Source: an uncultured Acidobacteriota bacterium (lineage in GTDB: Bacteria; Acidobacteriota; UBA4820; DSQY01). From it: a stretch of 64,000 nucleotides of DNA. Below, piece after piece: positions 22,933-57,452 of the stretch. Below the pieces are notes generated by a model. That model worked only from the letters and a program-made list of their open reading frames with translations, was not told where the DNA came from and did no database searches. The stretch lies in contig CAVYWK010000024.1 of NCBI GenBank assembly GCA_963772255.1, forward strand, positions 340,992 to 404,991. Direction: 5' to 3'. Numbering within the stretch: position 1 is the first letter of the stretch; each line of letters starts with the position of its first letter. The position numbers and the translations under genes were made by a program.

Positions 22933-25044
22933 ATGAAGAAACGGGTGAGCGTTGGAGTGTATTTTGTGGCCATCCTGGCCATGCTTTTGGCGGTGGCCGC
23001 CGTGGCGGCTCCTCCTCAGGAAAAACCTTGCGACCAGGCAACGGCAACCCAGGCGGCGGACCGATGGGACCCCAATGCCGCCGTCCCTGCTGACGGTGGG
23101 CAGGTTCTGGTGAAGGCGGTCCCGGCTCCCGCAAAGAGCCTGGCAGAATTGCAGGCCTGCTCCAAACCGCCGCAGAAGGGGGGAGGCGACGACGGACTCG
23201 CGCTCCAGCGCCGGGTGGCACCCTCGCCCTCGGCCGTGACCGCCACGGTTCTGTGGGACCAGCCGTCCAACGGCGGGAACGGCATCATCGATCAGCACTT
23301 CCCGGATTTCGGCGCCGGTGTATACAGCGCCGATGATTTCATCGTGGACACCCCATGGAGCATCGGGACGATTTTTGTGGACGGTCAAGGCTCATCGCTC
23401 AGCAACGCCGTAAGCTTGAACTGGGCCATTTACGCCGATCAGCCCATGGACACCAGGCCCATGGGACCTATCAGCACGATGGCTCTCCCTGACGGCTATC
23501 CCGGCGCCGGGGCGGCCCCCATCTGGAGTTTGAGCCTGGCCCCCAGCGCTCCCGGCGTCACGCTGGGAGGGGGCAACACCCAGGTGACCCTGGACATCAT
23601 CGCCGCCGGCGGCTCCGCGGTCCTGTTGTCGCCCGGGACCTACTGGCTCGAGTTCTACCCCAGCCTCAGTTTCGGTTCCTATGGGCAATGGTTCTGGGAC
23701 ATGGCAAGCACGACGAATGGCTCGATCGCTCAAGTCGTCGATCCGACTAACCTCCTCGGGAGCGGCTGGACCAATTGGGTGCCGTGGACCCTCATCGACA
23801 CATCCGCGCACGATGCCGCCTTCCGCCTGGAAACCCCCTCCTGCCCCTCCTACACCTATGACAACGGCCCGCTGGTCACGCATCCCGGCGGCGGCTCGGG
23901 CGGCGCGGACGCCAGCGTCCTTCAGACAGCCCTGAGCTTGAACTCCTATGGGTTCGGCCACGCCATCTCTACCGGTTACCGCGTGGCGGACGACTTCGTG
24001 GTGACGGACTCGGCGGGCTGGGATGTGAACACCATTCAGTTCTATGCGTACCAGACCGGGTCCACAACGACCTCCACCATCAACAACATCAACTACCGGA
24101 TTTGGAACGGCGACCCCAGCAACCCCGCCAGCTCCGTGGTCTTCGGCGACACGACCACGAACCGGCTCATGGGATCGGTTTGGTCCAATATTTACAGGGT
24201 CGTGGACTATTCAATGATGGACACTAACCGCCCCATCATGGTAAGCACGGTAAGTTGCGGGACCCACCTGGCCCCGGGCACCTACTGGCTCGACTGGCAG
24301 GTCGGCGGGACGCTGTCCTCGGGCCCCTGGGCCCCCCCCATCAGCATCCTCGGCCAGACCACCACCGGGAACGGTCTCCAGTACTACACCTCCTGGGCCG
24401 CCGCGCTCGACGCGGGCACATTGACCCAACAGGGCCTCCCGTTCAAGGTCAACTACAGCGTGTGCGTCGTCTGCCCCACGATTGATGTGTATCCCTACAC
24501 CTTGCCCACGCCCACGGTGGGTGTCCCCTATACCGTGGTTTTCTCTGCGTACGGCGGGACGGAGCCCTACACCTTCGCGGTGACGGCGGGCACGCTTCCT
24601 CCGGGACTGACGCTGGCGCGGACGGCACGCTGTCCGGCACGCTCACGTCCCTGGGCGACTTCTCCTTCACGGTGACGGCCACCGATCCCGGGCTGCACGG
24701 GCGAGCAGAGCTACTCCATGGCGACCTTCAGCGCCTATTTCCTGGACGACCAGGGCCGGTCCAAGCTGTGCGTGAACCGCCTCACGGGCGACTACATCTG
24801 GGAGATCACTTCAGGCCCAGGCATGGGGACCTACACGGGCGTGGCCAACATCCTCAACGGCGGGACCAAGATCTACAGCAAGCCCGGCGCGTACGATTAT
24901 CTCAACTGCACCTACGACGCCATCAAGAAAAGGGCCGCCGGATACTACATCACCGGGGCTGGGGACTATTCGGCGCTGAAGGACTACAACACGACGAACA
25001 ACGAGGGCGGATGCTTCGGGCGACCGGAGGAGCCCGTCAAATGA
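22933..25044 (+). CDS. G1: secreted multidomain protein (two jelly-roll-like domains + He_PIG Ig-like + conserved CTD); frame interrupted twice
   Basis: AGGAGG-N6-ATG at 22933. Signal peptide MKKRVSVGVYFVAILAMLLAVAAVAA. Fragments are 22933..24675 and 24718..25044, in the same frame. Comparison with G2/G3 shows a 1-nt gap near 24616 and a 2-nt gap near 24686. Confidence 0.75.
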
Positions 25045-25111
25045 CCCACCCGCTTTGAGCAGGCGTGCCATGCCTGCTGAAGCGGTGAATTGATCTGCAG
25101 TTTGATTCCAA

Positions 25112-25160
25112 GGGCGCGGGGCCTGTCTTTCTGAGACGAGGGCCCCGCGCTCTTTGTTTG
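25112..25160 (+). terminator. Conserved GGGCGCGGGGCC...GGCCCCGCGC terminator of G1
   Basis: 12-bp GC stem followed by tttgtttg. The same stem follows G2-G4 and G6-G9. Confidence 0.75.
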
Positions 25161-25296
25161 TGAAGAGTGAAGAGTGAAGAGTGAAGAGTAAGAGACGCTC
25201 TCCTCGGGGGAGCTCATCTTCGGCCACGCTCCCCACGCGCACCTCGCGAGCTCCGAGATGGATCAGTGACGACCATCACGAAGTGCTCGCCCTTGC

Positions 25297-25438: not shown

Positions 25439-27392
25439 ATGAGGATGAAAGGTGGAGTACTGTTGGTGGTCATCTTGGCCATGCTCCTGGCGGTGGCTGC
25501 CCTGGCGGGTTCCCCTACCGACAAGCAGTGCGGCAAGGTCAGCGCGGGCCAGGCGACTCAAGCCGGTGCCCGCCCAGGCCAAGACGGTTCCCGCGCCCCG
25601 TAAGAGCTTTGGGGTTCCGCAGGTCTGTTCCAACCCGGCCAAGCCGGGAGGAGGCGACGACGGCCTTCGCCCCAAGGCCGCCCCAGCACCCGCGCCCAAG
25701 GCGGTGAGTGCCACCGTCCTCTGGGACCAACCCCTGAGCACGGTGAACCAGAACGCCTATGTGGACCAGGATTTCTCAGATCTTCCCACCTACAGTTCCT
25801 ACCTCGCTGACGATTTCATCAACGAGACCTCATGGAACATCGGCACCATCTTCGTCCCGGGCGACGGCTGGAACGGGTTCACGACACTCATGAACGCCAC
25901 GAGCCTCACCTGGGCCATCTATGCCGACCAGGGCGTGCTGCCCTCGGGACCCATCAGCATGATGGGGATCCCCGACGGCTATCCCGGCGGAGGCAACGCC
26001 CCCTACTGGACCATCACCCTGCCGCCCACCGATCCCCAGGTGGCCATCACCACGGGGACGGGTGGTTATCCTTCCAACACGACCCTGACGCTCACCACGC
26101 CCATCAGCCTTCCCCCGGGCGCCTGGTGGCTCTATTTCTATCCCACGTTGAACTTCGCGTCGTATGGCCAGTTCGGCCGCCAGCCCTCGGACACTACCAA
26201 CGGCGGCATGGCCCAGTTCATCAATCCGGGCGGCGGCTTTGGTTTGGGCACGGGTCTACAAAATTGGAACATCCTCGACCCGGTGGGGCTCACCCAGCAT
26301 GACCTCGCCTTCCGCCTTGAAGACGCAGGCTGCGTGGAGACGGTGCAGGACGGCAGTTTCGAGGCGGGTTCGCCCAATCCTTACTGGGCGGAGTATTCCA
26401 CCAACTTCGGCACTCCCCTCTGCACCGTGTCGGGATGCGGTACGGGAACGGGCACGGGACCGCGCACGGGGTCCTGGTGGGCGTGGTTCGGCGGCATAGC
26501 CGCCTGGGAGGACGGCAGTGTCGCCCAGTCCATCGTGATTCCGGTGGGTACGGCCACGCTGAACTACTACACCGAGTTTCCGGTATGCAGCGGTGTGGCA
26601 GGGGACTACCTCGATGTGAGTCTCGACGGCACCAGAATCGCCCGCTACACGGCCCAGGACGCCACCTGCGGGACTGTGGGCTATGTCCTGCGCACCCATG
26701 ATGTGACGGCCTATGCCGATGGCTCCGCACACACCCTGAGCTTCCACTCCAACATTTCTTCGGGCGTCACCTCGAACTTCTTTGTGGACGATATCTCCCT
26801 CGTCTCGTGTGTGAACCCCTGCTCCACGATCTATGTGTATCCCTACACCCTGCCCACGCCCACGGTGGGAGTGCCCTACACGCTCCAGTTCTGGGCGTAT
26901 GGCGGGACGGAGCCTTATACCTTCGCGGTGACGGCGGGCGCGCTGCCTCCGGGGCTGACGCTGGCCGCGGACGGTACCCTGTCCGGCACCCTCCTTTCCC
27001 TGGGCGACTTCTCGTTTACGGTGACGGCCACCGATGCCAACGGGTGCACGGGCGAGCAGAGCTACTCCATGGCGACTTGGAGCGCGTATTTCCTGGACGA
27101 CCAGGGCCGGTCCAAGCTGTGCGTGAACCGGCTCACGGGCGACTATATCTGGGAGATCACCACCGGTCCGGGCATGGGGACCTACACGGGCGTGGCCAAC
27201 ATCCTTAACGGCGGGACCAAGATCTACAGCAAGCCCGGCGCGGAAGACTACCTCAACTGCACCTACGACGCCATCAAGAAAAGGGCTGCTGGATACTACA
27301 TCACCGCGGCCGGCGACTATTCGGCGCTGAAGGACTACAACACGACGAACAACGAGGGCGGATGCTTCGGGGGAGAGCAGAACCCCGACTGA
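25439..27392 (+). CDS. G2: secreted multidomain protein (jelly-roll domains + He_PIG + conserved CTD); frame disrupted near 25558
   Basis: GGGGAGG-N6-ATG. The signal peptide MRMKGGVLLVVILAMLLAVAALAG is in the frame of ORF 25388..25603, and the mature part is ORF 25452..27392. G1 alignment places the +1 shift between ...SAGQATQ and PVPAQAKTVPAP. Confidence 0.75.
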
Positions 27393-27502: not shown

Positions 27503-27674
27503 CGTGACAAGTGAGAGGTCAAGAGTGAAAGGGAAAAGTGAAGAGTGAGGAGTGAGGAGTGAGGAGCAAGAGAAGCTCTCCTCGGGGGAGCTCATCTTCG
27601 GCCACGCGACCCTCGCACGACTCTCGAGTTCCGAGATTGACTCGTGACGACCATCACGAAGCGCCCGCCGTTGC

Positions 27675-27878: not shown

Positions 27879-29976
27879 ATGAGAAGGATTCCTGTCCGTC
27901 CGATGTGGTTTGTGGTGCTTCTTGCGGCGATCCTCGCCCTGCCGGTGGTCGCCGGCGCGGCCCGGAACGACCAGTCAAGCATGGCGGGGGTGGCTCCCCC
28001 CCGGGCCTCACTGTCGGCCAATCCCGACTTCAGGGCCAAACCCCCGCAACGATGTGAATCGCCGGCGGTTCTTTCGGAAGGGGCCAAGGCGCGCCCGATG
28101 CGGGCCTTCAACAGCAATCAACCCAACAGGACCGCACCGTGGTCCAAGGTCTACGCGCCCTCCGGGAAGGCCGTGGCTCCGGGGCTGGCCATCCTCGTCT
28201 ACGCCGACGATTACTTCCATCAGGCGCCCAACACCTTCGTGGACCAGGCCCTGCAGTACTGGGGCTACGGGTACACGGCGCATTATGACGGCGACTTTTC
28301 CGGTTTCGTGGCCGATCTGACGGGGGGCACCGCCTGGGATCTCGTCATCTTCGCCCACGAGAACTACTCGACCGATTCCTCCGTGTTCGACGCCCTGAAC
28401 ACCTACGCGCTCGGCGGCGGCCGCCTGATTTTCCAGACCTGGCAGATGGGCGGAGGCGGCGATAGTTACACCTATCCCATCTTCGCAACGCTGGGGTTCA
28501 ACCTCGTTGAATCCAACTACGATCCCCCCTGGAACACCTACTGGTGGGATCCAAGCCACCCCTTCTTCAACTCGCCCATGACGGTTCCCGAATTCACCTC
28601 GCTGACGGGCTACCGCTACGGTACTTACGGCGGGCGCGGGGATGCGGATCCGGGATTCACGGCCGTGGCCGGGTACGTCTCCGGCCAGCCTACGGCCGTC
28701 TACATCCCCGGATACGCCGCCCTCGTCGTCGGGAACGGCGGGAGGACCATCTTCAAAGCCTTCCTCGACGGGCAGAACGACGCGAACCTCAACGAAAACG
28801 AGTATCCCGACGGCGCGGAACTCTGGATCAACATGATCGGTGGGATCTTTGGGTGCCCGGGCGCCCCCGTCAACGACGGGAGCTTCGAGAACGGCCCGCC
28901 GCCCTCCAGCGCCTGGACCGAGTGGACGAACACGGGATGCGAGTGGATCGGCGACATGAGCGGAATCTGGGGCATCCCCGCCCACGAAGGGGTGAATGTG
29001 TTCTGGGCCGGGGGGCTACTGCGGCGGTTCCATAAACTCGGACTACGTCGAGCAGAGCATCACGCTCCCGGCCAGCTCGCTGCTGAAGCTCAAGTTCTGG
29101 ACGGTCTTCTATCGTCCCGATCCCGACGACGCCTCCCCGGACACCTTCTACGTCAACGTGAACGGCACGCAGGTGTTCGCGAAGGGGATGATCCAGGCCA
29201 ACGACAGCTATCCGAACTGGGTCCAGGAAGAGGTCGACCTCACGGCGTACCAGGGCCAGACGGTGACCCTGCGCATCGGAGCCGACAGCCAGGGCTCGTC
29301 CACGGGGAACGTCCTCGTCGACGACCTCTCTCTCTCCGTCTGCCCCGTCGTCTGCCCCACGATTGACGTGTATCCCTACACCTTGCCCACGCCCACGGTG
29401 GGTGTCCCCTATACCGTGGTTTTCTCTGCCTACGGCGGGACGGAGCCCTACACCTTCACGGTGACGGCGGGCACGCTTCCTCCGGGGCTGACGCTGGCCG
29501 CGGACGGCACGCTGTCCGGCACCCTCACGTCCCTGGGCGACTTCTCCTTCACGGTGACGGCCACCGATGCCAACGGCTGCACGGGCGAGCAGAGCTACTC
29601 CATGGCGACTTGGAGCGCGTATTTCCTGGACGACCAGGGCCGGTCCAAGCTGTGCGTGAACCGCCTCACGGGCGACTACATCTGGGAGATCACTACAGGC
29701 CCAGGCATGGGCACCTACACGGGCGTCGCCAACATCCTTAACGGCGGCACCAAGATCTACAGCAAGCCCGGTGCGTACGATTATCTCAACTGCACCTACG
29801 ACGCCATCAAGAAAAGGGCGGCCGGATACTACATCACCGCGGCTGGCGACTACTCGGCGCTGAAGGATTACAACACGACGAACAACGTGGGAGGATGCTT
29901 CGGGAGGACCGGAGACGCCCAACTGACCGAACTCCGTCAGGGCGGGCGAGCCATGCCCGCTGAAGGGGTGAGTTGA
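27879..29976 (+). CDS. G3: secreted multidomain protein (unknown N-domain + jelly-roll + He_PIG + conserved CTD); frame disrupted near 29012
   Basis: Signal peptide MRRIPVRPMWFVVLLAAILALPVVAGA. Fragments are 27879..29366 and 28996..29976. The +1 shift is in the G-run ggccggggggct (GVNVFWAGG | YCGGSINSDY). The 3' end reads through the position of the G1/G2 stop. Confidence 0.75.
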
Positions 29977-30393: not shown

Positions 30394-32537
30394 ATGCCAA
30401 GTAAGAGAGCGGGAGTCCTTTTCGTCTTTCTGGCCCTTCTGGTGGCCGTCGGTGCCATGGCAGGCCAGATCAAAATCACGCCCGGCAATAGCGTCCATCG
30501 GAACGGACCCGTCGGTGTCGGGACAACCGGATCCGGATTGCCTCGGCCCGACTGTCCCGAAGTCTTTGACCAACTCCACCGTGATCCTTTCGGCAGGCTC
30601 AACCGACGTGTGCTGGACCCCGGGCACATCCCAGACCTTCTGTTTCCAGACCGATACCTTCACGCCCGACTGGGAGTATGTCTACACGCTCTGGCTCAGG
30701 TTTCCCGCCGATTGGACCGTCACCAATGTCACCGTCGACGGGACCCCGTCCTGCACCGGCGGCGGTAGCTGGGGATCTTTCAGCTGGGGCTTCGAAACGT
30801 CTCCTTACGAAGTCCGGATCAACCACCCCCGCTACCAGGCGTACACGGATCACTGCACCGCCACCTACTGCGTGACGGTGACCACCGGCGCTGGCTCGGG
30901 GGACGCCCCGGTCTCGTGGTACTGGGATGGAGACGGCTACGGCGGGGCGCCTCACCACCCCTGCAGCAGCGATGTCTACACCCCTCCCAGCATGGCATCG
31001 GAACCTTGCGACCAAGCCGTGAACCCCCCGGCGTCGGTCCCCGCAGGGGGCGTCTGGACCACCGTGAGCCGCCTCCGCCCCCCCGTCCTGGAATGGCAAC
31101 GGCTACCCGTGCAGCGGATGCACGGCCCAGAACGGCGCCGCGCAGTGGGTCACCTACCTCATCGGCGACACGACGACTTTCGGGGGCTTCTGGGGCTACA
31201 ACCACGCCACGAACGCGTGGTTCAACCCCGGGGCGGCGGGAACCCCTTCGAACCGTTGGGCTCCCAGCTGGGCCTACGATTCCGCCACCAACCGCTGCTA
31301 CCTCACGGGCGGCGCCACGACTCCCGGCGGCGGGAACATCACGCAGGCCTACATGTTCGATCCCGTGGCCAACAGCTTCTCGGCCCTGCCCAGCTTCACC
31401 ACGGCGCGGGCCTTCCACGGCTCCTGGGTGGGGACCATCGACGGCACGAAGTACCTCTGCATCGGCGGGGGCGTCGATGCCAGTTCCAACGTCTGGACCT
31501 CGACCCAGTGCTACAACCTCGACACCCTGCCGGGCGCCTGGGCGGCCGAGAACGCCACCATGGGGCCCTACCCCGTGGGCAAGTGGGGCGCGGCGTACGG
31601 GCGTCTCGCGGGCCCGGGCGGCTCCCAGTTCTGGGTCGCTTCGGGCGCGGATACGAGCTTTGCCCTCAACGACACGGCGCACTACTTCGACGATGCCGAT
31701 AACCTGTGGCATGCGGCGGGGAACACGGGGGCGCTCGTGTACCGCACGTCGGGCACGGTCTCAGGCAGCGATTTCTACATCGTGGGCGGATCTACGGGGG
31801 GATTCAGTCCTACCTCCAGCGTCTGGAAGCACAGCGGTGCAACCTGGGGCCCGGCGCCCAGCATGCCGCACGCCCGGATGGACCTCGTGACGGGCGCCGA
31901 AGCGAATGGGAGCATCTGGGTCGTCGACGGGTACGGCACGGGCGGCGCGAATTACGTAGATTACCTGACCTCCTGCGGCGGGGGATGCCCGACCATCACG
32001 CTGTCCCCCGCAACGCTGCCACTGGCCATCCTGGGCGTCCCCTACACGCAGACCATCACGGCGACGGGCGGTACGGGCCCTTACACCTTCGCGGTGACGG
32101 CGGGAGCGCTGCCGGCGGGGTTCACCCTCAGCGCGGGGGACGTTCTCGCCGGGACGCTCACGGCACTGGGTAGCTTCAGCTTCACGGTGACCGCCACCGA
32201 CACCCTGGGATGCACCGGGGAACTGGCATACACCATCGGAACCTTCAGCACCTTCTTCCTGGATGACGCCGGTCGTTCCAAGCTGTGTGTGAATCGCCTC
32301 ACGGGCGCCTATACATGGGAAATCATGGTGCCTCCAGGCGTGGGCGTTTATACGGGCGTGGCCAACATCCTCAACGGCGGCACCAAGATCTACAGCCAGC
32401 CCGGTGCGCCCGATTATCTCAATTGCACCTACGACCCGATCAGGAAGAGGGCCTCCGGGTACTTCATGACCGCCGCCGGGGATTACAGCCGGCTGACGGA
32501 CCTGAACACCGCCAACAACCTCGGCGGATGTCCGTGA
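30394..32537 (+). CDS. G4: secreted protein (Cys-rich N-domain + Kelch-like propeller + He_PIG + conserved CTD); at least 2 frame disruptions
   Basis: GGAGG-N6-ATG. Signal peptide MPSKRAGVLFVFLALLVAVGAMAG. Three fragments in successive frames: 30394.., the 30332-frame, and the 31353-frame. The second shift is in a C7 run at 31078-31084. Kelch-like repeats (WFNPGAAGTPSNRWAPSWAYDSATNRCYLTGG...). Confidence 0.7.
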
Positions 32538-32571: not shown

Positions 32572-32616
32572 GGGCGCGGGGCCTTTCTGCATGAGGGGCC
32601 CCGTGCCATTTATCTT
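32572..32616 (+). terminator. Conserved-stem terminator of G4
   Basis: gggcgcggggcc-tttctgcatgag-gggccccgtgcc followed by atttatctt. Confidence 0.65.
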
Positions 32617-40633: not shown

Positions 40634-40714
40634 GCGGGTGAACGACCCGCCGGAACACGGGCGCGGGGTTCCTGCCATTTCCAGGCAGGGGCCCCGCGCT
40701 CTTCTACTTTTGTC
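40634..40714 (+). terminator. Dual-hairpin 3' element of G6 (small hairpin + conserved-stem terminator)
   Basis: gcgggt-gaacg-acccgc, then gggcgcgggg-ttcctgccatttccaggcagg-ggccccgcgc and a T-rich tail. Confidence 0.75.
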
Positions 40715-47570: not shown

Positions 47571-50500
47571 ATGAGATGGCGTTCTGTACTGTTGGTTAGC
47601 GTGATTCTGGCACTGCTGGTTCTGCCGGCTTTCGGCGCCCAGCCCAGTCGGAAGGCGCCCAAGGCCGAAGTGTCCTATCCGGTGGCCGTGGCCTCGTCTC
47701 CGGCCTTCCGCGACCTTCCGGTGGACAACACGGAAGTCACCGTGGGGACCAGTCCCAATCGGGTCATCCCCAATCCCCAGCTCAACAAGACGGGCGCGAC
47801 GAGCGCACCGGAGGCGCCCTTCGACGTGGACCAGGTGCTGCAGTACAAGCACGGCAACGCGCCTGCCCCTAGCCCTCTAATCAGCTTCGACGGTATCAAC
47901 AACCTCGCGGGCGTGGCCCCTCCGGACACCCAGGGCGACATCGGCCCCGATCACTACGTTCAGTGGGTCAATCTCCACCTCGCCGCGTGGAGCATCAACC
48001 GCTCCACATGGACACCCACGCTTGTACTGGGTCCCGTGGCGGCGAATAGCATCTGGACCTCCCTGGGCGGTGATTGCGCAACGACCAACGACGGCGATCC
48101 CATCGTGCTGTGGGACCGCTTCCGTAGCCGCTGGGTCATCAGCCAGTTCGCCCTGCCCAATTACCCAAGCGGTCCCTCCAAGACGTCCATCGCCGTGTCC
48201 AAGACCGCGGACCCCACGGGGGCGTGGTGGCTCTACTGCTACGACTACAGCCCTACCACGATGAACGACTACCCCAAGTTTGGCGTCTGGCCGGACGGGT
48301 ATTACTACACCTGCAACCAGTTCCTCAACTTCTCCTCCTGGGGCGGTGCCGGCCTCGTGGTGTTCGAGGCCGACAAGATGATCAACGGCGACCCCACGGC
48401 CCGCCAGCTCAAGATCGACCTGGGCGCCGTAAGCCTGAACTATGGAGGCGTCCTGCCGGCGCACTTCGAGGGTACCAATAACCCGCCCGCGGGCTCGGGG
48501 TACTTCGTGGAGGTGGACGACAGCAGCTGGATGAGCCCGCCCTTGGCGCAGGACTCCATCTCGCTGTGGAAGGCCCACGTGGACTGGACCACTCCCAGCT
48601 TCACAGTGGGCGTGGGCGGACTGCCCGATCTGACCATCCCCGTGACGAACTTCACCCCCCTGTGCATCGGGAACCGGAACTGCATCCCGCAGCCTGGGAC
48701 CACCCAGAGGGTGGACGCCATCGCGGACCGGGGCATGTATCGGCTCCAGTACCGGAACTTCGGCACCTACGAGGCCATGGTCTTCAACATCACGGTGGAC
48801 AGCGGCTCGGCGGTGGCCGGGGTCCGGTGGTTTGAGCTCCGCAAGGACAGCGGGCACCCGGACTGGTACCTTTACCAGGAGGGGACCTACGCCCCCGCCG
48901 ACGGCAAACACCGCTGGATGGGCAGCGCGGCCCAGGACCACATGGGCGACCTGTGCATCGGTTACAGCCTCTCCGACGGCACGGCCACCTATCCCTCCGT
49001 GGGCTACGCGGGCCGTCTGGCGGGCGATCCGCTCGGCACTCTGCCCCAGTCCGAAGTGATTCTCCACGCCGGCGCGGCGTCGCAGACGGGCGTGAACCGC
49101 TGGGGCGACTACAGCAGCATGAGCATCGATCCCGTGGACGACTGCACCTTCTGGTACACGCAGGAATACTCCACGGGCGGATGGGATTGGGCCACGCGCA
49201 TCGGCGCGTTCAAGTTCGGCACGTGCTCCATCGGGCCCACGGGGACGCTGAGCGGCACGGTGGTGGATGCGGGCTCGCTTGCCCCCATCTCCGGCGCCAC
49301 GGTGACGGCAGTGGGTACGGTCAGGGCTTCGGCCACCACGGGTCCCACGGGCGCTTACACCCTCACGCTCCCCGTGGACACCTACAACGTGACGGGCGCG
49401 GCCTTCGGCTTCAACCCGGTGACGGTGAACGGCATCGCCATCACCAACGGCGTCACCACGACCCAGAACTTCTCCCTCGCGGCCGCGGGTAGCCACACCA
49501 TCACGGTGACAACCAATGATGGCACTACGACCTGGCCCCTCTACTCTCGAATCGACATGACGGGCGACATGGGCTATCCGGGCGGCACCTTCTGGACCGA
49601 CCCGCTCACAGGCACCTGGGGGCCCTTCCCCTTCGTGGACGGCGTGACCTACCACGGCGTCGTGACGCCGCTCTATCCCGGCTACGGTACGGGCTCGTTC
49701 ACGACCCCGCCTCTCAGCAACAACTTCAGCGCCGGATATGGTTTCGGTGGTGACGGCAGCTGCACCGCTCCGGGGTACGTGCTCTCGGGCGGGCTCAGCC
49801 AGGATTTCGAAGTGATGCCTCCCCCGGGCTGGACGGTTGTGAATAACGTCGGCGGTGGTCTCATCTGGAACTCGGACACCTCTTACGGCGATACCAACTA
49901 CACGGGCGGCACGGGTCACGCCGCCGACGTGAACAGCGATGCCAACTCGGGTGTCCCCTACGACACCGAGCTTCGCACGCCTGCCATGAACTTCACGACC
50001 TTCTCCGGTACGACCCTGACCTACAGGCTGAACTACCAGGACATCACGGCGTATGACGCCCTGGATGTGAACCTGAGCACGGACGGCGGCGCCACCTGGC
50101 CCGTGGTCCTCCGCCACTTCACCACCGACCAGGGCAGCCTCTACGCGGGACCGGGCGTCTCCGATTCCATCGACCTCTCCGCCTATGCCGCCCAGACCAA
50201 CGTCATGATCCGCTGGCGGTACTACACCTCCGAATCCAGTCCCTGGGATTGGTACGCTCAGATCGATCAGGTTCGCATCGGAACACCCGGCTGCACGGCC
50301 CCCGCCACCGGCGGTATCATCGTCGGCCAGGTGAACGACGCCAACACGGCCGGCCCCGTCACGGGCGCCACCGTGACCAACACGACCACTACCACGGTCG
50401 TCACGGCCCAGGCCACGCCCGATCCCGCCGTGGGCGACGCCTTCTACTGCGCCTTCGCCAACACGGGCAACGTCCTGAACGCCGCCAAGGCGCTCTACGG

Positions 50501-52419
50501 CACGGACACCACCACGGCGGGAGCCTTCCCGGCGAGCCGCATCCTCGCGCACGACTTCGCGCTCACGTCCGGACACCTCACGGCGACGCCCGCGAGCCTC
50601 GAATACGCCACGCCCACCAACGCGACGGGCTTCCAGACCCTGACGCTGAACAACATCGGTGCCGCGCCCGTGAATTGGACCGTCTCGGAGGCCATGGGTC
50701 ATCTGGCCAAGCCGAGCGGGAACCTCTTCGCGTGCCTGGCACCCCAGGCCGGGTCCAGCAAGATCGACCGGATGAACATCCTGGCGGCCGAGGAGGCCAG
50801 GGAACGGATTCGAGGGTCGGGAGGACCGTCCCAAGGACGAGAAGATCGCACCCCCGAGCAAGGACAAGACCGAAAAGCCTGAAGCACCCCACCAGTCCGC
50901 AGATGCCCCTCGGTCTTCCGGCATTGCGGATCATGCCCCGCCGGCCGCGGCACCCTACGCCGCGGGGGATGTCCTGGGAAGCTGGCCCAGCGGTCTCAGC
51001 ATGGCGTGGGGCATCGCCTTCGACGGCGCCGACAATACCGTGTGGGTCGGTTCCCCCGCTCCCTCCTGGGGCGGTAACGACACCATGTACGAGTACACGC
51101 CGGCGGGCACCGCGACGGGCCGCACCTATCCCTTCAGCTGGGCGCACTCGAACGGTCCCGGGGACTTTGCCTACGACTGGAACACCGGGAACATCTGGGT
51201 CATGAACATCAACACCGGGGTGAGCAACTGCATCTTCGAGGTGAACCCGGCCACCGGCCCCACGGGCGCTTCCATCTGCCCGGGCGGCGGTACGGGCTTC
51301 GCCACCTCCGAGCGCGGCATCGCCTACGACCCCGTCACGGATACCTTCTATGCGGGTGGCTGGAACACGCTGGCCATCACCCACTTCGACGCCAGCGGGA
51401 CCATCCTCGGCACGACCTCCGTGGGCCTCGAGATCTCTGGCCTCGCCTACAACCCCACCACCCAGCACCTCTTTGCCCAGACCAATTCGAGCCCGAACCT
51501 CATCTACGTGCTGGACGCGGCCAACAACTACGCGGTTCTTGGCTCGTTCGCGGTGGCCGGATTCGGAGACTACTCCGGAGCGGGCCTGGAGATCGACTGC
51601 AACGGGCACCTGTGGGCGGCGAACCAGGTCGATGCGAACATCTACGAGATCGACTCGGGCGAGGCCGCCTCGCTGTGCGGTATCCCCTGGCTGGACGAGA
51701 CACCCCTGAGCGGGACGGTGGCCGCCGGCGGCAGCCAGGATGTGACCGTGAGCTACGACTCCACGGGCATGGCGACGGGCATCTACCTCGCCACGCTGGT
51801 CTTCGGCAACGACACGCCTTACGGCTCGCTCAATGTTCCGGTCACCATGAACGTGTGGGAACCGGTGGCCGCCGGCGCGCCTCTCACGGGCCAAGCTCCG
51901 GTACCCGTGGCCTTCACCGGGACCATCACCAACCCCCTGGGAGCCTATACCTACGACTGGGATTTCGGGGACGGCAGCCCGCATTCCACGGCCCAGAACC
52001 CGACCCACACCTACAACATCGGAGGCACCTTCACGGTGACCTTCAGCGCCACGGACTCCTTCGGCCACACGGCCTCCGACAGCCACCTCTCGGTGGTCAT
52101 CACGGCGCCTGCGGCCCCGGTGGTCTACAACTTCTACGACGACGCGGGCCGCTCGCGGCTGTGCGTGAACCGGATCACCGGTGCCTACAGCTGGGAGATC
52201 CTCACGGGACCGGGCGCGGGTAATACCTACACGGGCACGGCGAACATCGTGAACGGCGGCACGAAGATCTACAGCAAGACCAGTGACCCGAACTACCTGA
52301 ACTGCACCTACGACCCGATCAAGAAGAGGGCGTCGGGGTACTACAACGTCGCGGCCGGGCCCTATTACAGCCGGCTGACGGACCTGAACACCACCAACAA
52401 CCCGCCCGGCTGCTACTAG
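47571..52419 (+). CDS. G8: giant secreted protein (shared N-domain + Ig/CarboxypepD_reg-like + jelly-roll + propeller-like + PKD + conserved CTD); 1 frame disruption near 50795
   Basis: Signal peptide MRWRSVLLVSVILALLVLPAFGA. ORF 47511..50882 is followed by the frame of ORF 51001..52419, which is open from 50776 and encodes a linker (PGNGFEGREDRPKDEKIAPPSKDKTEKPEAPHQ...). Alternative: two separate genes. Confidence 0.7.
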
Positions 52420-52434
52420 GCGGAGGGTGACGAC

Positions 52435-52907: not shown

Positions 52908-55900
52908 ATGGGAACGCGGCGAGTGGTGTGCATGTGTCTGTTGTTGATTTCCGTCCTTTTCTCGTTGGGGATGTTCGCGCAAGAACTTCCGCAGCAGGAG
53001 ATAGAGGTTCAGGGGGCGGTCCTCAATTCTGGCAAGGAGCCTGTGCAGGTCCTGGTCGTGTTGAACGATCCCCCGGCGGCGGTGGTATACGCCGATGTGA
53101 AATCGAAGCTAGGTTCCTCGGAGGCCCTGGCGTTGAGCCAGGCCAGGTCGCAGGTGGAGAGGCTCCGGCAGGCTCAGGGCCCCCTGGCCGCCCTCATCGA
53201 AGGTGCGCCTTTCAACGGCAGAGAGATCTACCGTGTCCAGAAGGTCCTGAACGGGATCTCCATCATGGTGGATCCTGGCCAGATCGAGGCCCTGAAGAAG
53301 CTGCCCGGTGTGAAGGCCGTCCACATCGTGGAACCCGAATATCCCTCCCTCTCCACGAGCGTCCCCTTCATCGGCGCCCAACACGTCTGGAATGGCCTCC
53401 CAGGCGGCATCGGGCCCTACAAGGGCGACAACATCCGCATCGGCATCATCGACTCGGGCATCGATTACAACCACGCGGACTTCGGCGGCACGGGCCTCCT
53501 CGCCGACTACCAGGCGAACGATCGGGTCAATCCCAACGCTTTCTACCCCAACGCCAAGGTCGTGGGCGGATGGGACTTTGCGGGCGACGCCTACACGGGC
53601 GGCAACGTCCCGGTGCCCGATGCCAATCCCACCGACTGCCTCGGCCACGGGTCCCACGTGGCGGGCATCGCGGCGGGCTACGGTGTCAACGCCGACGGTA
53701 CCACTTACGCGGGAGCTTACGACGACACGACCAACTTCTCCTCATTCCGCATCGGCCCCGGCGTGGCTCCCAGGGCCCAGCTATACTCCCTCCGTGTTTT
53801 TGGGTGCGGCGGGTCCACGGGCCTGACGGTTCTGGGCATCGAGTGGGCCATGGATCCGAACGGCGACAACGACATGTCAGACCACCTCGACGTCATCAAC
53901 ATGTCCCTCGGTTCCCAATTCGGCAGTCCCGCGAACACCTCGGCCATGGCGTCTGACAACGCCGCCCTGGTGGGCGTCATCGTGGTGGCATCCGCGGGGA
54001 ACAGCGGGGATACCTACTTCATCACCGGCGCCCCGGGCGTCTCCGGACGGACCATCAGCACGGCGTCGTGCATGGACAGCGGTATCTTGGCCGAGGCCCA
54101 GGTGATCCAAGGCGCCAACACTTACGTCGCCACCCCCGCAGCGTTCGGCGGCGTCCTCACTGCTCCTCTGACGGGAGCCATCGAGAACGCCAATCCCATC
54201 CAGGCCTGCTCAGCCCTCACAGGGTTCACGGCCGGTCGCATCGCGATCATCGACCGGGGCACTTGCAGCTTTGTCATCAAGGTCAAGGCGGCCCAGGATG
54301 CGGGCGCCATCGCGGTCATCGTGGCGAACAACGCCGCCGGAACTATCGTTATGGGGGGCACCGACCCCACCATCACCATCCCCTCGGTCATGGTTTCCAA
54401 TTCGGACGGCGCTCTCCTGAAGGCCCTCGCGGCGGGTACCTCAGTGACCATCAACCCCGTCTTCGGCGGGGACATCCTAAGCTCCTTCTCGTCGAGGGGC
54501 CCCAGCCGTGGCTCCATGACCCGGCTCAAGCCCGACATCACGGCGCCCGGCGATCAGATCATTTCGGTAGAGACGGGCATGACGTGCACATCGGCGGGCG
54601 CGGGGTGCATCTTCCCCAATGCCACCGGCTACAATCCCGGGAACCTTCCCGGAAACCTCTCGGGCACCTCCATGGCCGCCCCCCACATGGCGGGTGAGAT
54701 GGCCCTCCTCAAGCAGCAGCATCCCGGCTGGTCCGTGGAGGAGCTCAAATCCGCGGCAATGAACGGCGCCCTCCACAACGTGACCACGACGCCCAGCGCG
54801 GGCGGTCTGACCTACGGCGCGGGCCGCGTCGGCGCGGGCCGCGTGGACCCCGTCATCTCGGCCAAGAATGGATGCGTGGCCTTCAACGACGAGCCCGGCG
54901 GGCTCGTGAGCGTCTCCTTCGACGCCTCGGTGACGGCGCCCACGACGCAGACCAAGAATGTCCGCGTGATGAACAACGGGACGGAATACGCCAACTACGA
55001 CATTGCCCTCGTCACCACCTTGGATGCGCCCGGTATCACCTTCACCGAGCCCTATGTCAGCATGGGCCTCGGAACCAATGCCTCGATCCTGATCCCCGTC
55101 ACCATGACCGCCAACCCCGCCCAGATGAAGCACACCCGAGAGGCGACGGTATCGAACGCGCAGACCGGTCCGGCCCCTCTGGCGAACAGCTACTACCGCC
55201 ACTGGCTCACCGAAGAGTCTGCCTACCTCGTCCTCAGCCAGGGCGGCCAGCCCAAAATCCGCGTGCCGATCTACATGACGGCCCGACCGGCCTCGGTCAT
55301 GCAGGGCCCGGCCTCTATCGTCACGGGCGGTGCGCCCACGGGCTCCACCACCCTCGCCCTGACGGGGACCGGGGTCTGCACGGGCACGCCCGGAGTGGGG
55401 ACCTGCGCGGGCACCTTCCCGAACGATGAGGTCTCCCTCGTGACGCCTTTCGAACTGCAGGTGGTCCATCCCCGAGACCCATCGATTCCCGACTACTTGG
55501 ATATCCAGTACGCCGGAGTCGCCTACAACACCGCCAACAACATCGTGATGTTTGGAGTATCAACCTGGGGGCCGTGGGCCACTCCGACCGATGTGTCCTT
55601 CAGCATCGACATCGACAACAACCTCGACGGGGTCTGGGATCGTACCCTCTTCAACAGCAACCCGGGGACCATGGCCGGCTACCTCTTCGGCACGTCGGGC
55701 GCCTACGCGCAGGATTCCTTCCTCTGCGCCTACTTCAATATCGCCACGAGCGGAGTGGGCACCACGCAATACCTCAATGCGGTCAGTGCCAATACGGCAG
55801 ATACGGCTCTCTTCAAGAACAACGTGATGTTCCTGACGGCGAGCCCCGCCTCGTTGGGAATGGCAGGTACCAGTTTCAGGTACCGCATCATCGTCCGGCA

Positions 55901-57452
55901 GGGCACCAGCCCGTTGCTCGGCTCCGCCGTGGAAACCATTTCGGGACCGTTCTTCTGGGACCGCGCCGCCCAGGGACTTAACTTCGGTGGGACCTATCTC
56001 GGGAACGACCTCAACGGCGCGACTATCCCTGTCACCTGGAATACAGCGAACTTGGCCACGAACGGTTCGCTGGGAGCCCTCCTCCTGCACCACCACAACG
56101 CCCCCGGAAACACCGCCCAGGTCATCCCCCTCCAGGGCACGGCCTCGGCGGACCTTGCCCTCACCAAGACGGCCCTTCCCGCGTCGCCAACCTTTGGTCA
56201 GAACGTGGTCTTTACCCTCACGGTGACCAACAATGGCGGCTCCGCGGCCTCTGGCGTCACCGCCAGCGACCCGCTCCCCGCTGGACTTACCTTCGTTTCC
56301 GATGACGGTGCGGGCGCCTACAACAGCGCCACGGGCCAGTGGACCATCGGTGCCCTGGCAAGCGGCGCCGCGGCGACCCTACACATCACTTGCACCGTGA
56401 GTGGGCAGGGGACCATCGTTAACACGGCCAAGGTCTTCGCAACCTCTCCCCTCGACCCGGTCCCGGCCAACAACACCGCGACGGCGCAGTTCAGCGTCGG
56501 CCGCAGCGCCGACCTGGGAGTCACAAAGACGGGCGACGCCACGGTCTACAGCGGCGGCAGCATCACCTATACCATCACCATGACCAACGCTGGCCCCGAC
56601 GACGCCCTCCACCCCTGGATCCAGGATGACGTTCCGGCCAACACGACGTTCGTTTCGGCCACGGCGAGCGCCGGGGCGGTCCTTTCGATGCCGGGCGTCG
56701 GCGGCACGGGGACGGTGGTTGCGAGATGGCCCGCCAACGCCCTGCCCGCCGGGGGGACCTTCTCGCTGACCCTCGTGGTCAACGTGCCCGCCAACGTGCA
56801 CAACGGCACGCCCATCACCAACACGGCGACGGTGGCGTCCCTCGTACCGGACGGCAATGCGGCCAACAACACGGCGACCTTTGTGACGAACGTCCTCTGC
56901 CCGACCTTCTCCATCCTGCCGGCGGTCCTCCCGCCCTCGGTGACTGGTCTTCCCTATAGCCAGCAGCTAACTACGCCGGGAACGGCAAGTGCGTGCACGT
57001 TCGCCGTGACCGCTGGGACCCTGCCCCCGGGTATCACCGTGTCGGCCGCCGGTCTCATTTCCGGGATACCGACAAGCACTCTCAACTACAACTTCACGGT
57101 GACGGCCACCGATGCCGCGGGTTGCACGAGCACCCAGGCCTACACCTTCGCTTCCGCCAACCTCTTCTTCCTCGACGACGCAGGGCGCACGAGGCTGTGC
57201 GTGAATGCCAGGACGGGGGCTTACATCTACCAGATCCTGCTCGGGCCCCACGCGGGCGAGACTTACACCGGAACCGCCAACATCGTGAACGGGGGGACCA
57301 AGATCTACAGCAAGCCGGGCGCCGCGGACTACCTGAACTTTACCTACGACCCCATTCGCAAGCGGGCCGCCGGGTACTTCCAGAGCCCCGTGGGAGGGTA
57401 TTCGACCCTGACCGACTACAACACGGCCAACAACGCGGGTGGATGCACCTGA
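52908..57452 (+). CDS. G9: secreted S8 subtilisin-family peptidase with I9 propeptide, PA-domain insert, DUF11-type repeats, He_PIG and conserved CTD, intact
   Basis: 1514-aa uninterrupted ORF. Signal peptide MGTRRVVCMCLLLISVLFSLGMFA. Triad contexts IGIIDSGIDYNH, CLGHGSHVAGIAAG and SGTSMAAPHMAGE. PA insert (IAIIDRGTCSFVIKVKAAQDAGAIAVIV). Two ADLxxTKT... DUF11-like repeats. Confidence 0.9.
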   Translation: MGTRRVVCMCLLLISVLFSLGMFAQELPQQEIEVQGAVLNSGKEPVQVLVVLNDPPAAVVYADVKSKLGSSEALALSQARSQVERLRQAQGPLAALIEGAPFNGREIYRVQKVLNGISIMVDPGQIEALKKLPGVKAVHIVEPEYPSLSTSVPFIGAQHVWNGLPGGIGPYKGDNIRIGIIDSGIDYNHADFGGTGLLADYQANDRVNPNAFYPNAKVVGGWDFAGDAYTGGNVPVPDANPTDCLGHGSHVAGIAAGYGVNADGTTYAGAYDDTTNFSSFRIGPGVAPRAQLYSLRVFGCGGSTGLTVLGIEWAMDPNGDNDMSDHLDVINMSLGSQFGSPANTSAMASDNAALVGVIVVASAGNSGDTYFITGAPGVSGRTISTASCMDSGILAEAQVIQGANTYVATPAAFGGVLTAPLTGAIENANPIQACSALTGFTAGRIAIIDRGTCSFVIKVKAAQDAGAIAVIVANNAAGTIVMGGTDPTITIPSVMVSNSDGALLKALAAGTSVTINPVFGGDILSSFSSRGPSRGSMTRLKPDITAPGDQIISVETGMTCTSAGAGCIFPNATGYNPGNLPGNLSGTSMAAPHMAGEMALLKQQHPGWSVEELKSAAMNGALHNVTTTPSAGGLTYGAGRVGAGRVDPVISAKNGCVAFNDEPGGLVSVSFDASVTAPTTQTKNVRVMNNGTEYANYDIALVTTLDAPGITFTEPYVSMGLGTNASILIPVTMTANPAQMKHTREATVSNAQTGPAPLANSYYRHWLTEESAYLVLSQGGQPKIRVPIYMTARPASVMQGPASIVTGGAPTGSTTLALTGTGVCTGTPGVGTCAGTFPNDEVSLVTPFELQVVHPRDPSIPDYLDIQYAGVAYNTANNIVMFGVSTWGPWATPTDVSFSIDIDNNLDGVWDRTLFNSNPGTMAGYLFGTSGAYAQDSFLCAYFNIATSGVGTTQYLNAVSANTADTALFKNNVMFLTASPASLGMAGTSFRYRIIVRQGTSPLLGSAVETISGPFFWDRAAQGLNFGGTYLGNDLNGATIPVTWNTANLATNGSLGALLLHHHNAPGNTAQVIPLQGTASADLALTKTALPASPTFGQNVVFTLTVTNNGGSAASGVTASDPLPAGLTFVSDDGAGAYNSATGQWTIGALASGAAATLHITCTVSGQGTIVNTAKVFATSPLDPVPANNTATAQFSVGRSADLGVTKTGDATVYSGGSITYTITMTNAGPDDALHPWIQDDVPANTTFVSATASAGAVLSMPGVGGTGTVVARWPANALPAGGTFSLTLVVNVPANVHNGTPITNTATVASLVPDGNAANNTATFVTNVLCPTFSILPAVLPPSVTGLPYSQQLTTPGTASACTFAVTAGTLPPGITVSAAGLISGIPTSTLNYNFTVTATDAAGCTSTQAYTFASANLFFLDDAGRTRLCVNARTGAYIYQILLGPHAGETYTGTANIVNGGTKIYSKPGAADYLNFTYDPIRKRAAGYFQSPVGGYSTLTDYNTANNAGGCT

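What the first reader, a model, noticed from the sequence alone, without database searches (positions are those of the whole stretch)
22933..57452. Nine secreted giants share an unrecognised ~105-aa Cys-containing C-terminal domain: candidate new sorting or anchoring signal
**Observation.** Nine consecutive same-strand genes (G1-G9) have Sec signal peptides and very different N-terminal cargo: two S8 proteases, a Kelch-like propeller, jelly-roll proteins, and an unknown 550-aa domain. All nine end with the same module.

**Module positions.** About 24718-25044, 27069-27392, 29602-29976, 32241-32537, 36663-36959, 40321-40617, 46491-46817, 52120-52419 and 57156-57452.

**Hand-aligned consensus.** [FY]x[LFVY]DDxGRx[KR][LV]C[VI]NxxTGxYx[WFY]xI ... 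Gx[YF][TA]GxAx[IV]xNGG[TA]K[IV]YS ... LN[CF]TYDxxxKRAx[GA] ... GxYxxLxDxNTxNNxxGC. The gene usually stops 1-2 residues after the final Cys.

**Interpretation.**
- One invariant domain at the extreme C-terminus of unrelated cargo is how the T9SS CTD, PEP-CTERM and similar sorting tags behave.
- This sequence does not resemble any C-terminal sorting domain I can recall (T9SS type A/B CTD, PEP-CTERM, LPXTG, GlyGly-CTERM, MYXO-CTERM).
- No candidate processing or secretion machinery is visible in the window.
Basis: partly seen in the sequence, partly recalled or inferred. Interest (0 to 1): 0.85.

Follow-up and report, generated by a model that had tools for sequence, protein, structure and literature searches.

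The report
New C-terminal domain on acidobacterial secreted proteins
Nine neighbouring secreted-protein genes of an Acidobacteriota genome all end in the same uncatalogued ~97-residue beta domain, always at the very C-terminus and kept alike within each genome, which suggests a shared address tag whose partner and function are unproven.

Summary
Each ends one of nine consecutive + strand genes that start with a Sec signal peptide and carry otherwise different cargo.

- **Not catalogued.** The module has no meaningful match in Pfam, NCBIfam or PDB sequences. Its confident AlphaFold model (pLDDT 93.5, eight beta strands) has no significant PDB or BFVD structural match.
- **Distribution.** Profile and DNA-pattern searches find about 350 protein clusters. 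All 42 genome loci with a real copy are Acidobacteriota MAGs (18 species).
- **Position.** In all 169 complete copies scored at DNA level, the domain ends 0-25 residues before the stop codon.
- **Concerted evolution.** Copies on unrelated cargo within one genome average 66% identity, against 39% between genomes. Orthologous cargo (44-69%) is better conserved than its own tag (32-44%).

This fits a shared address module read by a genome-specific partner, as with the T9SS CTD, the T11SS cargo barrel or dockerins. No partner or machinery was found, so secretion signal, surface anchor and ligand-binding module remain open.

Six of the nine genes are frame-broken in this assembly. This is most likely indel error, because nuoF and nuoG are broken too.

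The parts
22933..25044 (+). G1 carrier gene (~700 aa): signal peptide, unknown cargo, He_PIG, CTD. Frame-broken by a -1 and a -2 indel relative to G2 and G3.
24730..25014 (+). CTD copy 1
   Evidence: i-E 1.4e-49
25439..27392 (+). G2 carrier gene (~650 aa): signal peptide in a shifted frame, unknown cargo, He_PIG, CTD
27081..27365 (+). CTD copy 2
   Evidence: 7.5e-49
27879..29976 (+). G3 carrier gene (~700 aa): signal peptide, unknown cargo, He_PIG, CTD. One frame change near 29000.
29614..29898 (+). CTD copy 3
   Evidence: 4.7e-49
30394..32537 (+). G4 carrier gene (~715 aa): signal peptide, Kelch propeller, He_PIG, CTD. One frame change near 31100.
32247..32531 (+). CTD copy 4
   Evidence: 6.8e-47
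32785..36959 (+). G5 carrier gene (~1390 aa): signal peptide, S8 protease, 2x He_PIG, CTD. Two frame changes.
36666..36953 (+). CTD copy 5
   Evidence: 1.4e-44
37141..40617 (+). G6 carrier gene (1158 aa, uninterrupted): signal peptide, unknown N-terminal region, CarboxypepD_reg, MAM-like, He_PIG, CTD
40324..40614 (+). CTD copy 6 (the copy modelled with AlphaFold2)
   Evidence: 4.9e-46
41086..46817 (+). G7 carrier gene (~1910 aa): signal peptide, unknown region, CarboxypepD_reg, PKD, CTD. Three frame changes. Intact orthologues of 1626-1671 aa exist in L041 and L035.
46524..46811 (+). CTD copy 7
   Evidence: 2.3e-49
47571..52419 (+). G8 carrier gene (~1615 aa), a paralogue of G7. One frame change near 50850.
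52126..52413 (+). CTD copy 8
   Evidence: 1.2e-47
52908..57452 (+). G9 carrier gene (1514 aa, uninterrupted): signal peptide, S8 protease with PA insert, 2x DUF11, He_PIG, CTD. The exact protein is on record, and a 1512-aa JGI protein shares its 90%-identity cluster.
57159..57449 (+). CTD copy 9
   Evidence: 1.9e-46
40659..40701 (+). Strong terminator-like hairpin after G6. Near-identical hairpins follow G8 (52462-52502) and G9 (57493-57535), and related ones follow G4 (32573-32607) and G1 (25138-25154). The genes look like separate transcription units that share a 3' cassette.

Best explanation
The module is a new, lineage-restricted C-terminal domain of about 97 residues. It is all-beta with eight strands and is probably stapled by one disulfide between the Cys in strand 2 and the Cys at the tail. 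I read it as a common address tag.

**Proposed mechanism.**
1. Proteins with unrelated passenger domains (proteases, propellers, jelly-roll and Ig arrays) are exported by Sec.
2. In the periplasm the tag folds and is oxidised.
3. Its conserved polar face (the DDxGR loop plus the DxNTxNNxxGC tail) is recognised by one envelope partner that co-evolves with it in each genome.
4. That partner either passes the cargo across the outer membrane or holds it on the cell surface.
5. The He_PIG or PKD domain directly upstream acts as a spacer.

**Shown.** Domain reality, strict terminal position, signal peptides, diverse cargo, restriction to Acidobacteriota, many carriers per genome, and within-genome homogenisation.

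**Inferred.** The disulfide, the recognition face, the existence of a partner, and whether the outcome is export or anchoring.
For: **Reality and cargo.** Nine copies with E 1e-44 to 1e-49. All nine genes have Sec signal peptides. Cargo is heterogeneous in the window. Across 76 full-length relatives Pfam finds He_PIG in 28, PKD in 12, Kelch in 5, and Sortilin, CBM96, P_proprotein, Cohesin and others in a few each.

**Terminal rule.** The domain ends 0-25 aa before the stop in 9/9 window copies, 0-12 aa in 72/72 genome-locus copies and 0-11 aa in 88/88 metagenome copies. It lies within 11 aa of the end in about 147 of 151 representative proteins.

**Lineage and copy number.** 42 of 44 GTDB pattern hits are Acidobacteriota MAGs (18 species), and the other two carry no domain. 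Up to 8 or more carriers were seen per genome despite a pattern sensitivity of only about 55%.

**Concerted evolution.**
- Orthologous cargo is 44-69% identical between genomes, but its CTD is only 32-44% identical.
- CTDs on unrelated cargo inside the window are 55-98% identical.
- Mean identity is 66% within genomes and 39% between them. The nearest neighbour is in the same genome for 54 of 76 copies, against a permutation mean of 4.4 and a maximum of 16.
- Mean identity is 78% within a locus, 60% between loci of one genome and 39% between genomes.

**Structure and conservation.** The model is confident (pLDDT 93.5, eight strands). Across 203 unique domains, D6 and D86 are 100% conserved and C14 98%, and most sequences have exactly two Cys.

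**Precedents.** Folded C-terminal beta domains serve as outer-membrane export signals in the T9SS (CTD beta-sandwich, PMC4804311) and in the T11SS (eight-stranded meander barrel that also sets secretor specificity, 10.1101/2023.03.15.532718). Cargo modules like those of G6 and G9 carry other C-terminal sorting tags in other phyla (NCBIfam rhombosortase-, myxosortase- and T9SS-dependent M36 models).
Against: - No candidate receptor, peptidase or translocon is encoded in the window.
- None recurs next to carriers in 113 related loci. The only frequent neighbour, a DUF6938 protein, comes from one population at 95-100% identity.
- Three of 151 relatives carry tandem doublets, so an internal copy is tolerated.
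- Tails of 0-25 residues or more after the last Cys argue against a strict need for a free C-terminus at a fixed place.
- Homogenisation could be neutral gene conversion. The 3' 570 nt of G1-G3 are 89-95% identical at DNA level, and some same-genome copies are only 30-35% identical.
- The fold does not retrieve T9SS CTDs or T11SS cargo barrels among the top 50 Foldseek matches.
- There are no experimental data.
Confidence: 0.45

Rival explanations
1. The domain is an ordinary ligand-binding module: a lectin/CBM-like or Ca-dependent adhesion domain. It would bind a polysaccharide, exopolymer or substrate. It sits at the C-terminus only by descent, because it spreads as a 3' He_PIG/PKD+CTD cassette by duplication and gene conversion.
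For: - It is a small all-beta domain rich in conserved aromatic and Asp/Asn residues.
- The weak best structural matches are ligand-binding lipocalin-like barrels.
- It occurs with adhesin-type Ig domains and CBM96.
- Tandem doublets exist.
- 3' cassettes are near-identical at DNA level and share a terminator.
- No machinery was found.
Against: - Binding modules usually occur at varied positions. Here 169 of 169 copies scored at DNA level are terminal.
- A chemically fixed ligand would not predict tags that diverge faster between genomes than the cargo while staying alike within a genome.
- There is no match to any CBM or lectin family.
Confidence: 0.3
2. The domain has a structural or maturation role. 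It could be a C-terminal cap, an intramolecular folding aid, or an oligomerisation or docking domain that is perhaps removed after secretion, like the pre-peptidase C-terminal (PPC) domain of secreted proteases. Alternatively it could be a dockerin-like plug for a cohesin-type scaffold.
For: - It follows an Ig-like domain directly, with almost no linker.
- It is present on proteases.
- Two relatives carry cohesin domains.
- Within-genome similarity resembles the species specificity of dockerins.
Against: - Most carriers are not proteases.
- There is no Pfam match to PPC or dockerin.
- A fold-capping role does not need the strongly conserved polar surface motifs.
Confidence: 0.15
3. The cluster is a decaying array of pseudogenes or an assembly artefact of a repeated sequence, with no function.
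For: Six of the nine genes are frame-broken as assembled.
Against: - The essential genes nuoF and nuoG are broken in the same way, which points to indel errors.
- Orthologues are intact in other MAGs.
- The exact G9 protein is on record, and a near-identical JGI protein shares its 90%-identity cluster.
- GC3 is strongly elevated along the stitched frames.
- The domain is conserved in about 350 protein clusters.
Confidence: 0.03

Closest known systems
T9SS C-terminal domain (type A, TIGR04183 / PF18962 Por_Secre_tail)
   Same: - Carriers have a Sec signal peptide plus unrelated cargo.
- An Ig-like domain often sits just upstream.
- The tag is a folded all-beta domain of about 80-100 aa at the extreme C-terminus.
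- There are many carriers per genome, and the machinery is not encoded next to cargo (PMC4804311).
   Different: - No HMM match even at E<=1.
- The model has eight strands and retrieves no T9SS CTD in the top 50 Foldseek hits.
- It has a conserved Cys pair and a DxNTxNNxxGC tail rather than the T9SS motifs.
- The hosts are Acidobacteriota. To my knowledge no T9SS is described there.
T11SS (Slam/DUF560) cargo C-terminal beta-barrel (TbpBBD / lipoprotein C families)
   Same: - The architecture is two-part: a variable N-terminal effector plus a C-terminal eight-stranded beta domain.
- Export is Sec-dependent.
- The barrel directs secretion and sets specificity for its cognate secretor (10.1101/2023.03.15.532718). 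This would explain genome-specific tag evolution.
   Different: - No sequence match, and T11SS cargo structures are not among the top Foldseek matches.
- T11SS is described only in Proteobacteria, and cargo is usually paired with a neighbouring DUF560 gene. No recurrent outer-membrane neighbour is seen here.
Dockerin-cohesin system
   Same: A small terminal module sits on many different enzymes. Its sequences are alike within a species and diverge between species along with the partner. Its motifs are rich in Asp/Asn.
   Different: Dockerin is a helical, EF-hand-like duplicated segment, whereas this domain is all-beta. There is no Pfam dockerin match. No scaffoldin was identified.
Short C-terminal sorting signals (PEP-CTERM/exosortase, MYXO-CTERM, GlyGly-CTERM/rhombosortase, LPXTG/sortase)
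   Same: They are lineage-specific tags at the extreme C-terminus of many Sec-exported paralogues. MYXO-CTERM also has a key Gly-Cys (recalled from memory).
   Different: Those signals are a short motif, a transmembrane helix and a basic tail. Here there is no hydrophobic helix: the protein ends 1-25 residues after the Cys and the tag is a folded domain. No NCBIfam match.
TIGR03437 'Soli_cterm' (Solibacter uncharacterised C-terminal domain) and PPC pre-peptidase C-terminal domain (PF04151)
   Same: Both are lineage-enriched C-terminal domains of unknown or secretion-linked role on secreted proteins. Soli_cterm is also acidobacterial (recalled from memory, not tested beyond the HMM scans).
   Different: No match to either model in the NCBIfam or Pfam scans.

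Membership tests
T9SS type A/B CTD | Match to TIGR04183 / TIGR04131 / PF18962 profile | tested here: not met
   hmmscan of 6 window copies against Pfam and NCBIfam, and of 44 diverse members against Pfam, at E<=1: none
T9SS type A/B CTD | Seven-stranded beta-sandwich fold like the RgpB/PorZ CTDs | tested here: inconclusive
   The model has eight strands. No T9SS CTD is in the top 50 Foldseek PDB matches and none has E<=0.001. Coordinates could not be inspected or superposed directly.
T9SS type A/B CTD | Host encodes T9SS core components (SprA, PorV, PorU and others) | not testable with these tools
None is seen in the window or in 113 loci.
T11SS cargo barrel | Match to the TbpBBD / lipoprotein C families | tested here: not met
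   No Pfam hit at E<=1
T11SS cargo barrel | C-terminal eight-stranded meander beta-barrel | tested here: inconclusive
   Eight consecutive strands at the C-terminus. The best weak matches are lipocalin-like barrels with TMq up to 0.55. Barrel closure was not verified.
T11SS cargo barrel | Cognate DUF560 outer-membrane secretor, usually adjacent; proteobacterial host | tested here: not met
   Hosts are Acidobacteriota. No recurrent outer-membrane neighbour was found. For the 112-neighbour scan only the 25 commonest Pfam families were visible.
PEP-CTERM / MYXO-CTERM / GlyGly-CTERM / LPXTG | Short motif, then a hydrophobic transmembrane helix, then a basic tail at the C-terminus | tested here: not met
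   The sequences end ...NNxGGC plus 1-25 polar residues with no hydrophobic helix. No NCBIfam match.
Dockerin | Duplicated Ca-binding helical segment (PF00404) | tested here: not met
   All-beta model; no Pfam hit
He_PIG (PF05345), for the domain just upstream of the CTD | Profile match above the gathering score | tested here: met
   G2-G6 and G9 score 40-90 bits against a cut-off of 24. G1 scores 20.4 bits in its broken frame. The He_PIG+CTD model retrieves cadherin-like Ig domains.
Any curated family (Pfam 2025, NCBIfam r20, PDB) | Significant sequence or structure match for the CTD | tested here: not met

The most novel reading that the evidence does not exclude
The domain is the export or attachment signal of an undescribed outer-membrane secretion or surface-display pathway of Acidobacteriota (Thermoanaerobaculia-like lineages). 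In this reading a disulfide-stapled eight-stranded beta tag is read by a co-evolving envelope receptor. The logic would be analogous to T9SS and T11SS, but the system would be unrelated to either.
Probability: 0.3. Interest if true: 0.85.

Novelty: new variant of a known kind. Interest (0 to 1): 0.62.

Why it matters
Acidobacteriota are abundant in soils, sediments and bioreactors, and they degrade polymers with secreted enzymes. How they move proteins across or fix them to the outer membrane is largely unknown.

- **A marker.** A phylum-restricted tag that sits on a dozen or so proteases, propellers and adhesin-like proteins per genome gives a ready marker for that secretome.
- **A handle.** An HMM combined with phylogenetic profiling or AlphaFold-multimer screening could find the missing machinery.
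- **An annotation gain.** If the domain turns out to be only a binding module, it is still a new domain family of about 350 clusters that current annotation pipelines leave blank.
- **An evolutionary case.** It is a clear example of concerted evolution of a protein tag.

Tried and rejected
- **Pfam and NCBIfam scans** of the CTD (6 window copies and 44 diverse members): nothing consistent. The isolated hits (BRO1 and others) are noise.
- **PDB sequence search** with the profile: only a spurious low-complexity hit to the designed lectin MITSUBA-1, with no aligned stretch passing.
- **Foldseek** against PDB and BFVD: no match at E<=0.001. The He_PIG+CTD model only retrieves cadherin-like Ig domains through its He_PIG part.
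- **The search for homologous proteins** (word-indexed): 9 and 6 short hits only, with no informative names.
- **The search for related loci** on genome contigs: alignments A3 and A2 were too diverse. A4 found no confirmed relative. This was replaced by a hand-designed degenerate DNA pattern.
- **The look-up of encoding contigs** for P0001 and P0013: not on record. P0009 gave a fragmented long-read contig of little use.
- **Radical SAM gene upstream of G1** as a possible Cys-modifying maturase: rejected. It is a Tes-like tetraether lipid synthase homologue, and among the loci checked for window-flank homologues it neighbours a carrier only in L045.
- **DUF6938 protein inside carrier arrays** as a possible partner: rejected. 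All 11 instances are 95-100% identical (one population), it looks cytoplasmic, and it is absent from the window.
- **Literature searches** for a prior description: none found.

Full report
**1.

Thirty-nine columns are invariant (alignment A1).

An HMM built from the domain finds exactly these nine copies in a six-frame scan of the window. All are on the + strand, with domain E-values of 1e-44 to 1e-49, and there is no tenth copy. A degenerate DNA pattern for the N-terminal motif hits 8 of the 9 copies, against zero in 100 shuffles.

Each module closes one of nine consecutive + strand genes:

| Gene | Coordinates |
|---|---|
| G1 | 22933-25044 |
| G2 | 25439-27392 |
| G3 | 27879-29976 |
| G4 | 30394-32537 |
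| G5 | 32785-36959 |
| G6 | 37141-40617 |
| G7 | 41086-46817 |
| G8 | 47571-52419 |
| G9 | 52908-57452 |

Each gene starts with an ATG behind a GGAGG-like site, followed by a classical Sec signal peptide.

Cargo differs between genes:
- S8 protease in G5 and G9; G9 also has PA and two DUF11 repeats.
- Kelch propeller in G4.
- CarboxypepD_reg in G6-G8, with a MAM-like jelly roll in G6 and G8.
- Unrecognised domains in G1-G3.

The domain directly upstream of the module is He_PIG in seven genes and PKD in two.

**2.

As assembled, only G6 and G9 are uninterrupted, and G2 needs one shift after its signal peptide. G1, G3, G4, G5, G7 and G8 need one to three frame changes each. In G1 the breaks are a -1 and a -2 indel relative to the near-identical G2 and G3 sequence.

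These are most likely assembly indels rather than decay, for four reasons:
- nuoF and nuoG just downstream are also split across frames.
- Orthologues of G1, G3, G4, G5 and G7/G8 are intact in other MAGs.
- The exact G9 protein is on record, and a near-identical JGI protein shares its 90%-identity cluster.
- GC3 stays high along the stitched frames.

**3. The module is not a catalogued family**
- Six window copies give no meaningful Pfam or NCBIfam match at E<=1 (one 13-bit BRO1 hit in Pfam, none in NCBIfam).
- Forty-four diverse members give no consistent Pfam family.
- A profile search of PDB sequences gives nothing meaningful.

AlphaFold2 models the G6 copy with high confidence (mean pLDDT 93.5, pTM 0.85). 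The model has eight consecutive beta strands and a short C-terminal turn. Foldseek finds no PDB or BFVD match at E<=0.001. The best weak matches are lipocalin-like barrels (phenolic acid decarboxylase, MoaF, lipocalins; TMq up to 0.55). No T9SS CTD or T11SS cargo barrel appears in the top 50. A model of He_PIG plus CTD (pLDDT 85.9) only retrieves cadherin-like Ig domains through its He_PIG half.

I could not inspect coordinates. 'Small meander barrel' and 'C14-C96 disulfide' are therefore inferences.

**4. Distribution**

An exhaustive profile search of 1.84 billion cluster representatives finds 351 proteins at E<=1e-3 and 229 at E<=1e-10. A few of these are hit only through the He_PIG flank of the profile.

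A domain-only HMM finds the domain in 151 of the 154 proteins then held (the 150 listed representatives plus earlier hits). It lies within 11 residues of the C-terminus in about 147 of them. The exceptions are three tandem doublets (P0017, P0089, P0139) and a few long tails.

A degenerate DNA pattern that covers about 55% of family members was scanned over one genome per GTDB species. It gave 44 loci:
- 42 are Acidobacteriota MAGs from 18 species, one of them named Thermoanaerobaculia.
- The other two (Motiliproteus, Roseibacillus) carry no domain and are chance hits.

These MAG loci contain 72 copies, and every one ends 0-12 residues before a stop codon. The same pattern over JGI/ENA metagenomes gave 70 further loci with 98 copies. 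All 88 complete copies end 0-11 residues before the stop.

Carriers often sit in tandem arrays (five in L038; three each in L003, L005 and L028). At least 7-8 were seen in several single genomes.

The window shares synteny with these MAGs. A Tes-like radical SAM gene lies upstream in L045, and nuoA/B lie downstream in L042 and L023 with 77-79% NuoA identity. The window is therefore from a related acidobacterium.

**5. Conservation pattern**

Across 203 unique domains:

| Position | Conservation |
|---|---|
| D6 | 100% |
| D86 | 100% |
| G20 | 99% |
| C14 | 98% |
| G38 | 98% |
| D7 | 94% |
| A70 | 94% |

The commonest pattern is exactly two Cys, one in strand 2 and one at the tail. The conserved polar residues fall in the beta1-beta2 loop (DDxGR) and the C-terminal tail (DxNTxN[ND]PxGC). 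If the two Cys pair, these two segments are brought together. I read this as one conserved face, perhaps a Ca site. This is inference.

**6. Concerted evolution, the most informative new result**

Orthologous carriers in different genomes are 44-69% identical in cargo but only 32-44% identical in their CTDs. Inside the window, CTDs on unrelated cargo are 55-98% identical.

Over 77 CTDs from 19 genomes:
- Mean identity is 66% within genomes and 39% between them.
- The nearest neighbour lies in the same genome for 54 of 76 copies, against a permutation mean of 4.4 and a maximum of 16.
- Mean identity is 78% within a locus, 60% between loci or contigs of one genome, and 39% between genomes.

At DNA level, the last ~570 nt (He_PIG+CTD) of G1-G3 are 89-95% identical while the upstream cargo is not. 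A near-identical terminator hairpin follows G6, G8 and G9, and related hairpins follow G1 and G4.

The tag therefore evolves as a cassette that is kept alike within a genome. Either gene conversion or selection to fit one genome-specific partner (or both) could produce this.

**7. Surroundings**

The window flanks are housekeeping genes:
- DUF507, MetRS, an ECF sigma factor and a variant radical SAM.
- ADH, pstSCAB-phoU, oppDF, a POT transporter and a PHP hydrolase.
- A Tes-like radical SAM directly upstream of G1.
- nuoA-G downstream.

No secretion or processing machinery is present. In 113 related loci no non-carrier neighbour recurs beyond local synteny. The Pfam families of 112 neighbours are scattered, with at most four members each. 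The most frequent neighbour, a DUF6938 protein, is one population's gene at 95-100% identity.

**8. Interpretation**

The data fit a shared address module best (confidence about 0.45). Sec-exported proteins of unrelated function carry, behind an Ig-like spacer, a folded terminal tag that a lineage-specific and probably co-evolving envelope partner recognises, either for outer-membrane passage or for surface retention.

Two precedents exist for folded C-terminal beta domains in this role:
- The T9SS CTD (PMC4804311).
- The eight-stranded barrel of T11SS cargo, which also determines secretor specificity (10.1101/2023.03.15.532718).

Dockerins show the same within-species likeness. Cargo modules like those of G6 and G9 carry other sorting tags in other phyla.

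The domain fails every tested membership criterion for those families. It may work like them, but it is not one of them.

The main rival (about 0.3) is an ordinary binding module that is terminal by descent and homogenised by neutral gene conversion. A structural, maturation or docking role (about 0.15) and pseudogene or artefact (about 0.03) follow.

**9. Verdict**

The family is real, uncatalogued, Acidobacteriota-restricted as far as these searches can see, strictly C-terminal and concertedly evolving. Its function as a sorting or anchoring signal is plausible but unproven, and no machinery is known.

I rate it a new variant of a known kind (folded C-terminal tags of secreted proteins), with interest 0.62.

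Noticed in passing
window 20854-22626 (+): The radical SAM protein directly upstream of G1 best matches NCBIfam 'tetraether lipid synthase Tes' (E 8e-95, 318 bits, below the 450 cut-off) and has an HMPTM-type Zn ribbon. A homologue also precedes a carrier in L045. Acidobacteria make membrane-spanning branched tetraether lipids, so this may be a candidate brGDGT gene. It is probably unrelated to the CTD.
   Followed up: partly
window 61223-62692 / 62286-62591 (nuoF); 62763-63398 / 63088-63999 (nuoG): Essential respiratory genes are split across reading frames, as are six of the nine carrier genes. The assembly appears to carry frequent indel errors, so any ORF-level annotation of this contig will be fragmented.
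   Followed up: yes
window 40659-40701, 52462-52502, 57493-57535 (also 32573-32607, 25138-25154): The same ~40-nt GC-rich hairpin (GGGGCGCGGGGTTCCTGCC...GGCAGGGGCCCCGCGCC followed by a T run) follows several carrier genes. It is a repeated terminator-like element that travels with the 3' cassette.
   Followed up: partly
window 25160-25194 and 27521-27566: Heptamer tandem repeats, (GTGAAGA)x5 and (AAGAGTG)x6.7, lie in the G1-G2 and G2-G3 intergenic regions. These regions also share identical promoter-like boxes (TGGACA-18-TAAATT at 25297 and 27675). The intergenic regions were duplicated along with the genes.
   Followed up: no
window 3642-4349 (-), 4767-5321 (-), 5344-6417 (-), 6566-7816 (+): There is an ECF sigma factor next to two conserved hypothetical proteins. 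One of them (236 aa) has a faint PilQ N-terminal match (E 3e-4), and JGI labels some cluster members as 'secretin'. A 'variant radical SAM' (NF045502, above its cut-off) is also present. These genes lie 16-19 kb from the cluster and no link to it is shown.
   Followed up: partly
P0017, P0089, P0139 (metagenome proteins): A few small proteins carry two CTD copies in tandem, separated by a short Gly/Pro-rich linker. These are the only internal occurrences of the domain seen.
   Followed up: partly
L010 2120-3523 (-), also L013, L005, L056, L061, L063, L079, L087, L106, L109, L111: A cytoplasmic-looking DUF6938 protein (468 aa) sits between carrier genes on the same strand. All instances are 95-100% identical, so this is one population's locus. 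It is absent from the window.
   Followed up: yes
window G9 residues ~404-516 and G6 residues ~708-987: The PA and MAM-like segments match NCBIfam models named rhombosortase-dependent, myxosortase-dependent and T9SS-dependent M36 metallopeptidase. The same cargo modules are therefore coupled to different C-terminal sorting tags in other phyla.
   Followed up: no
window CTD copies, column 'LNCTYD': Seven of the nine window copies have a third Cys in strand 6 (Phe in G6 and G9). This Cys is rare in the wider family (about 10 of 203 sequences). Its significance is unknown.
   Followed up: no
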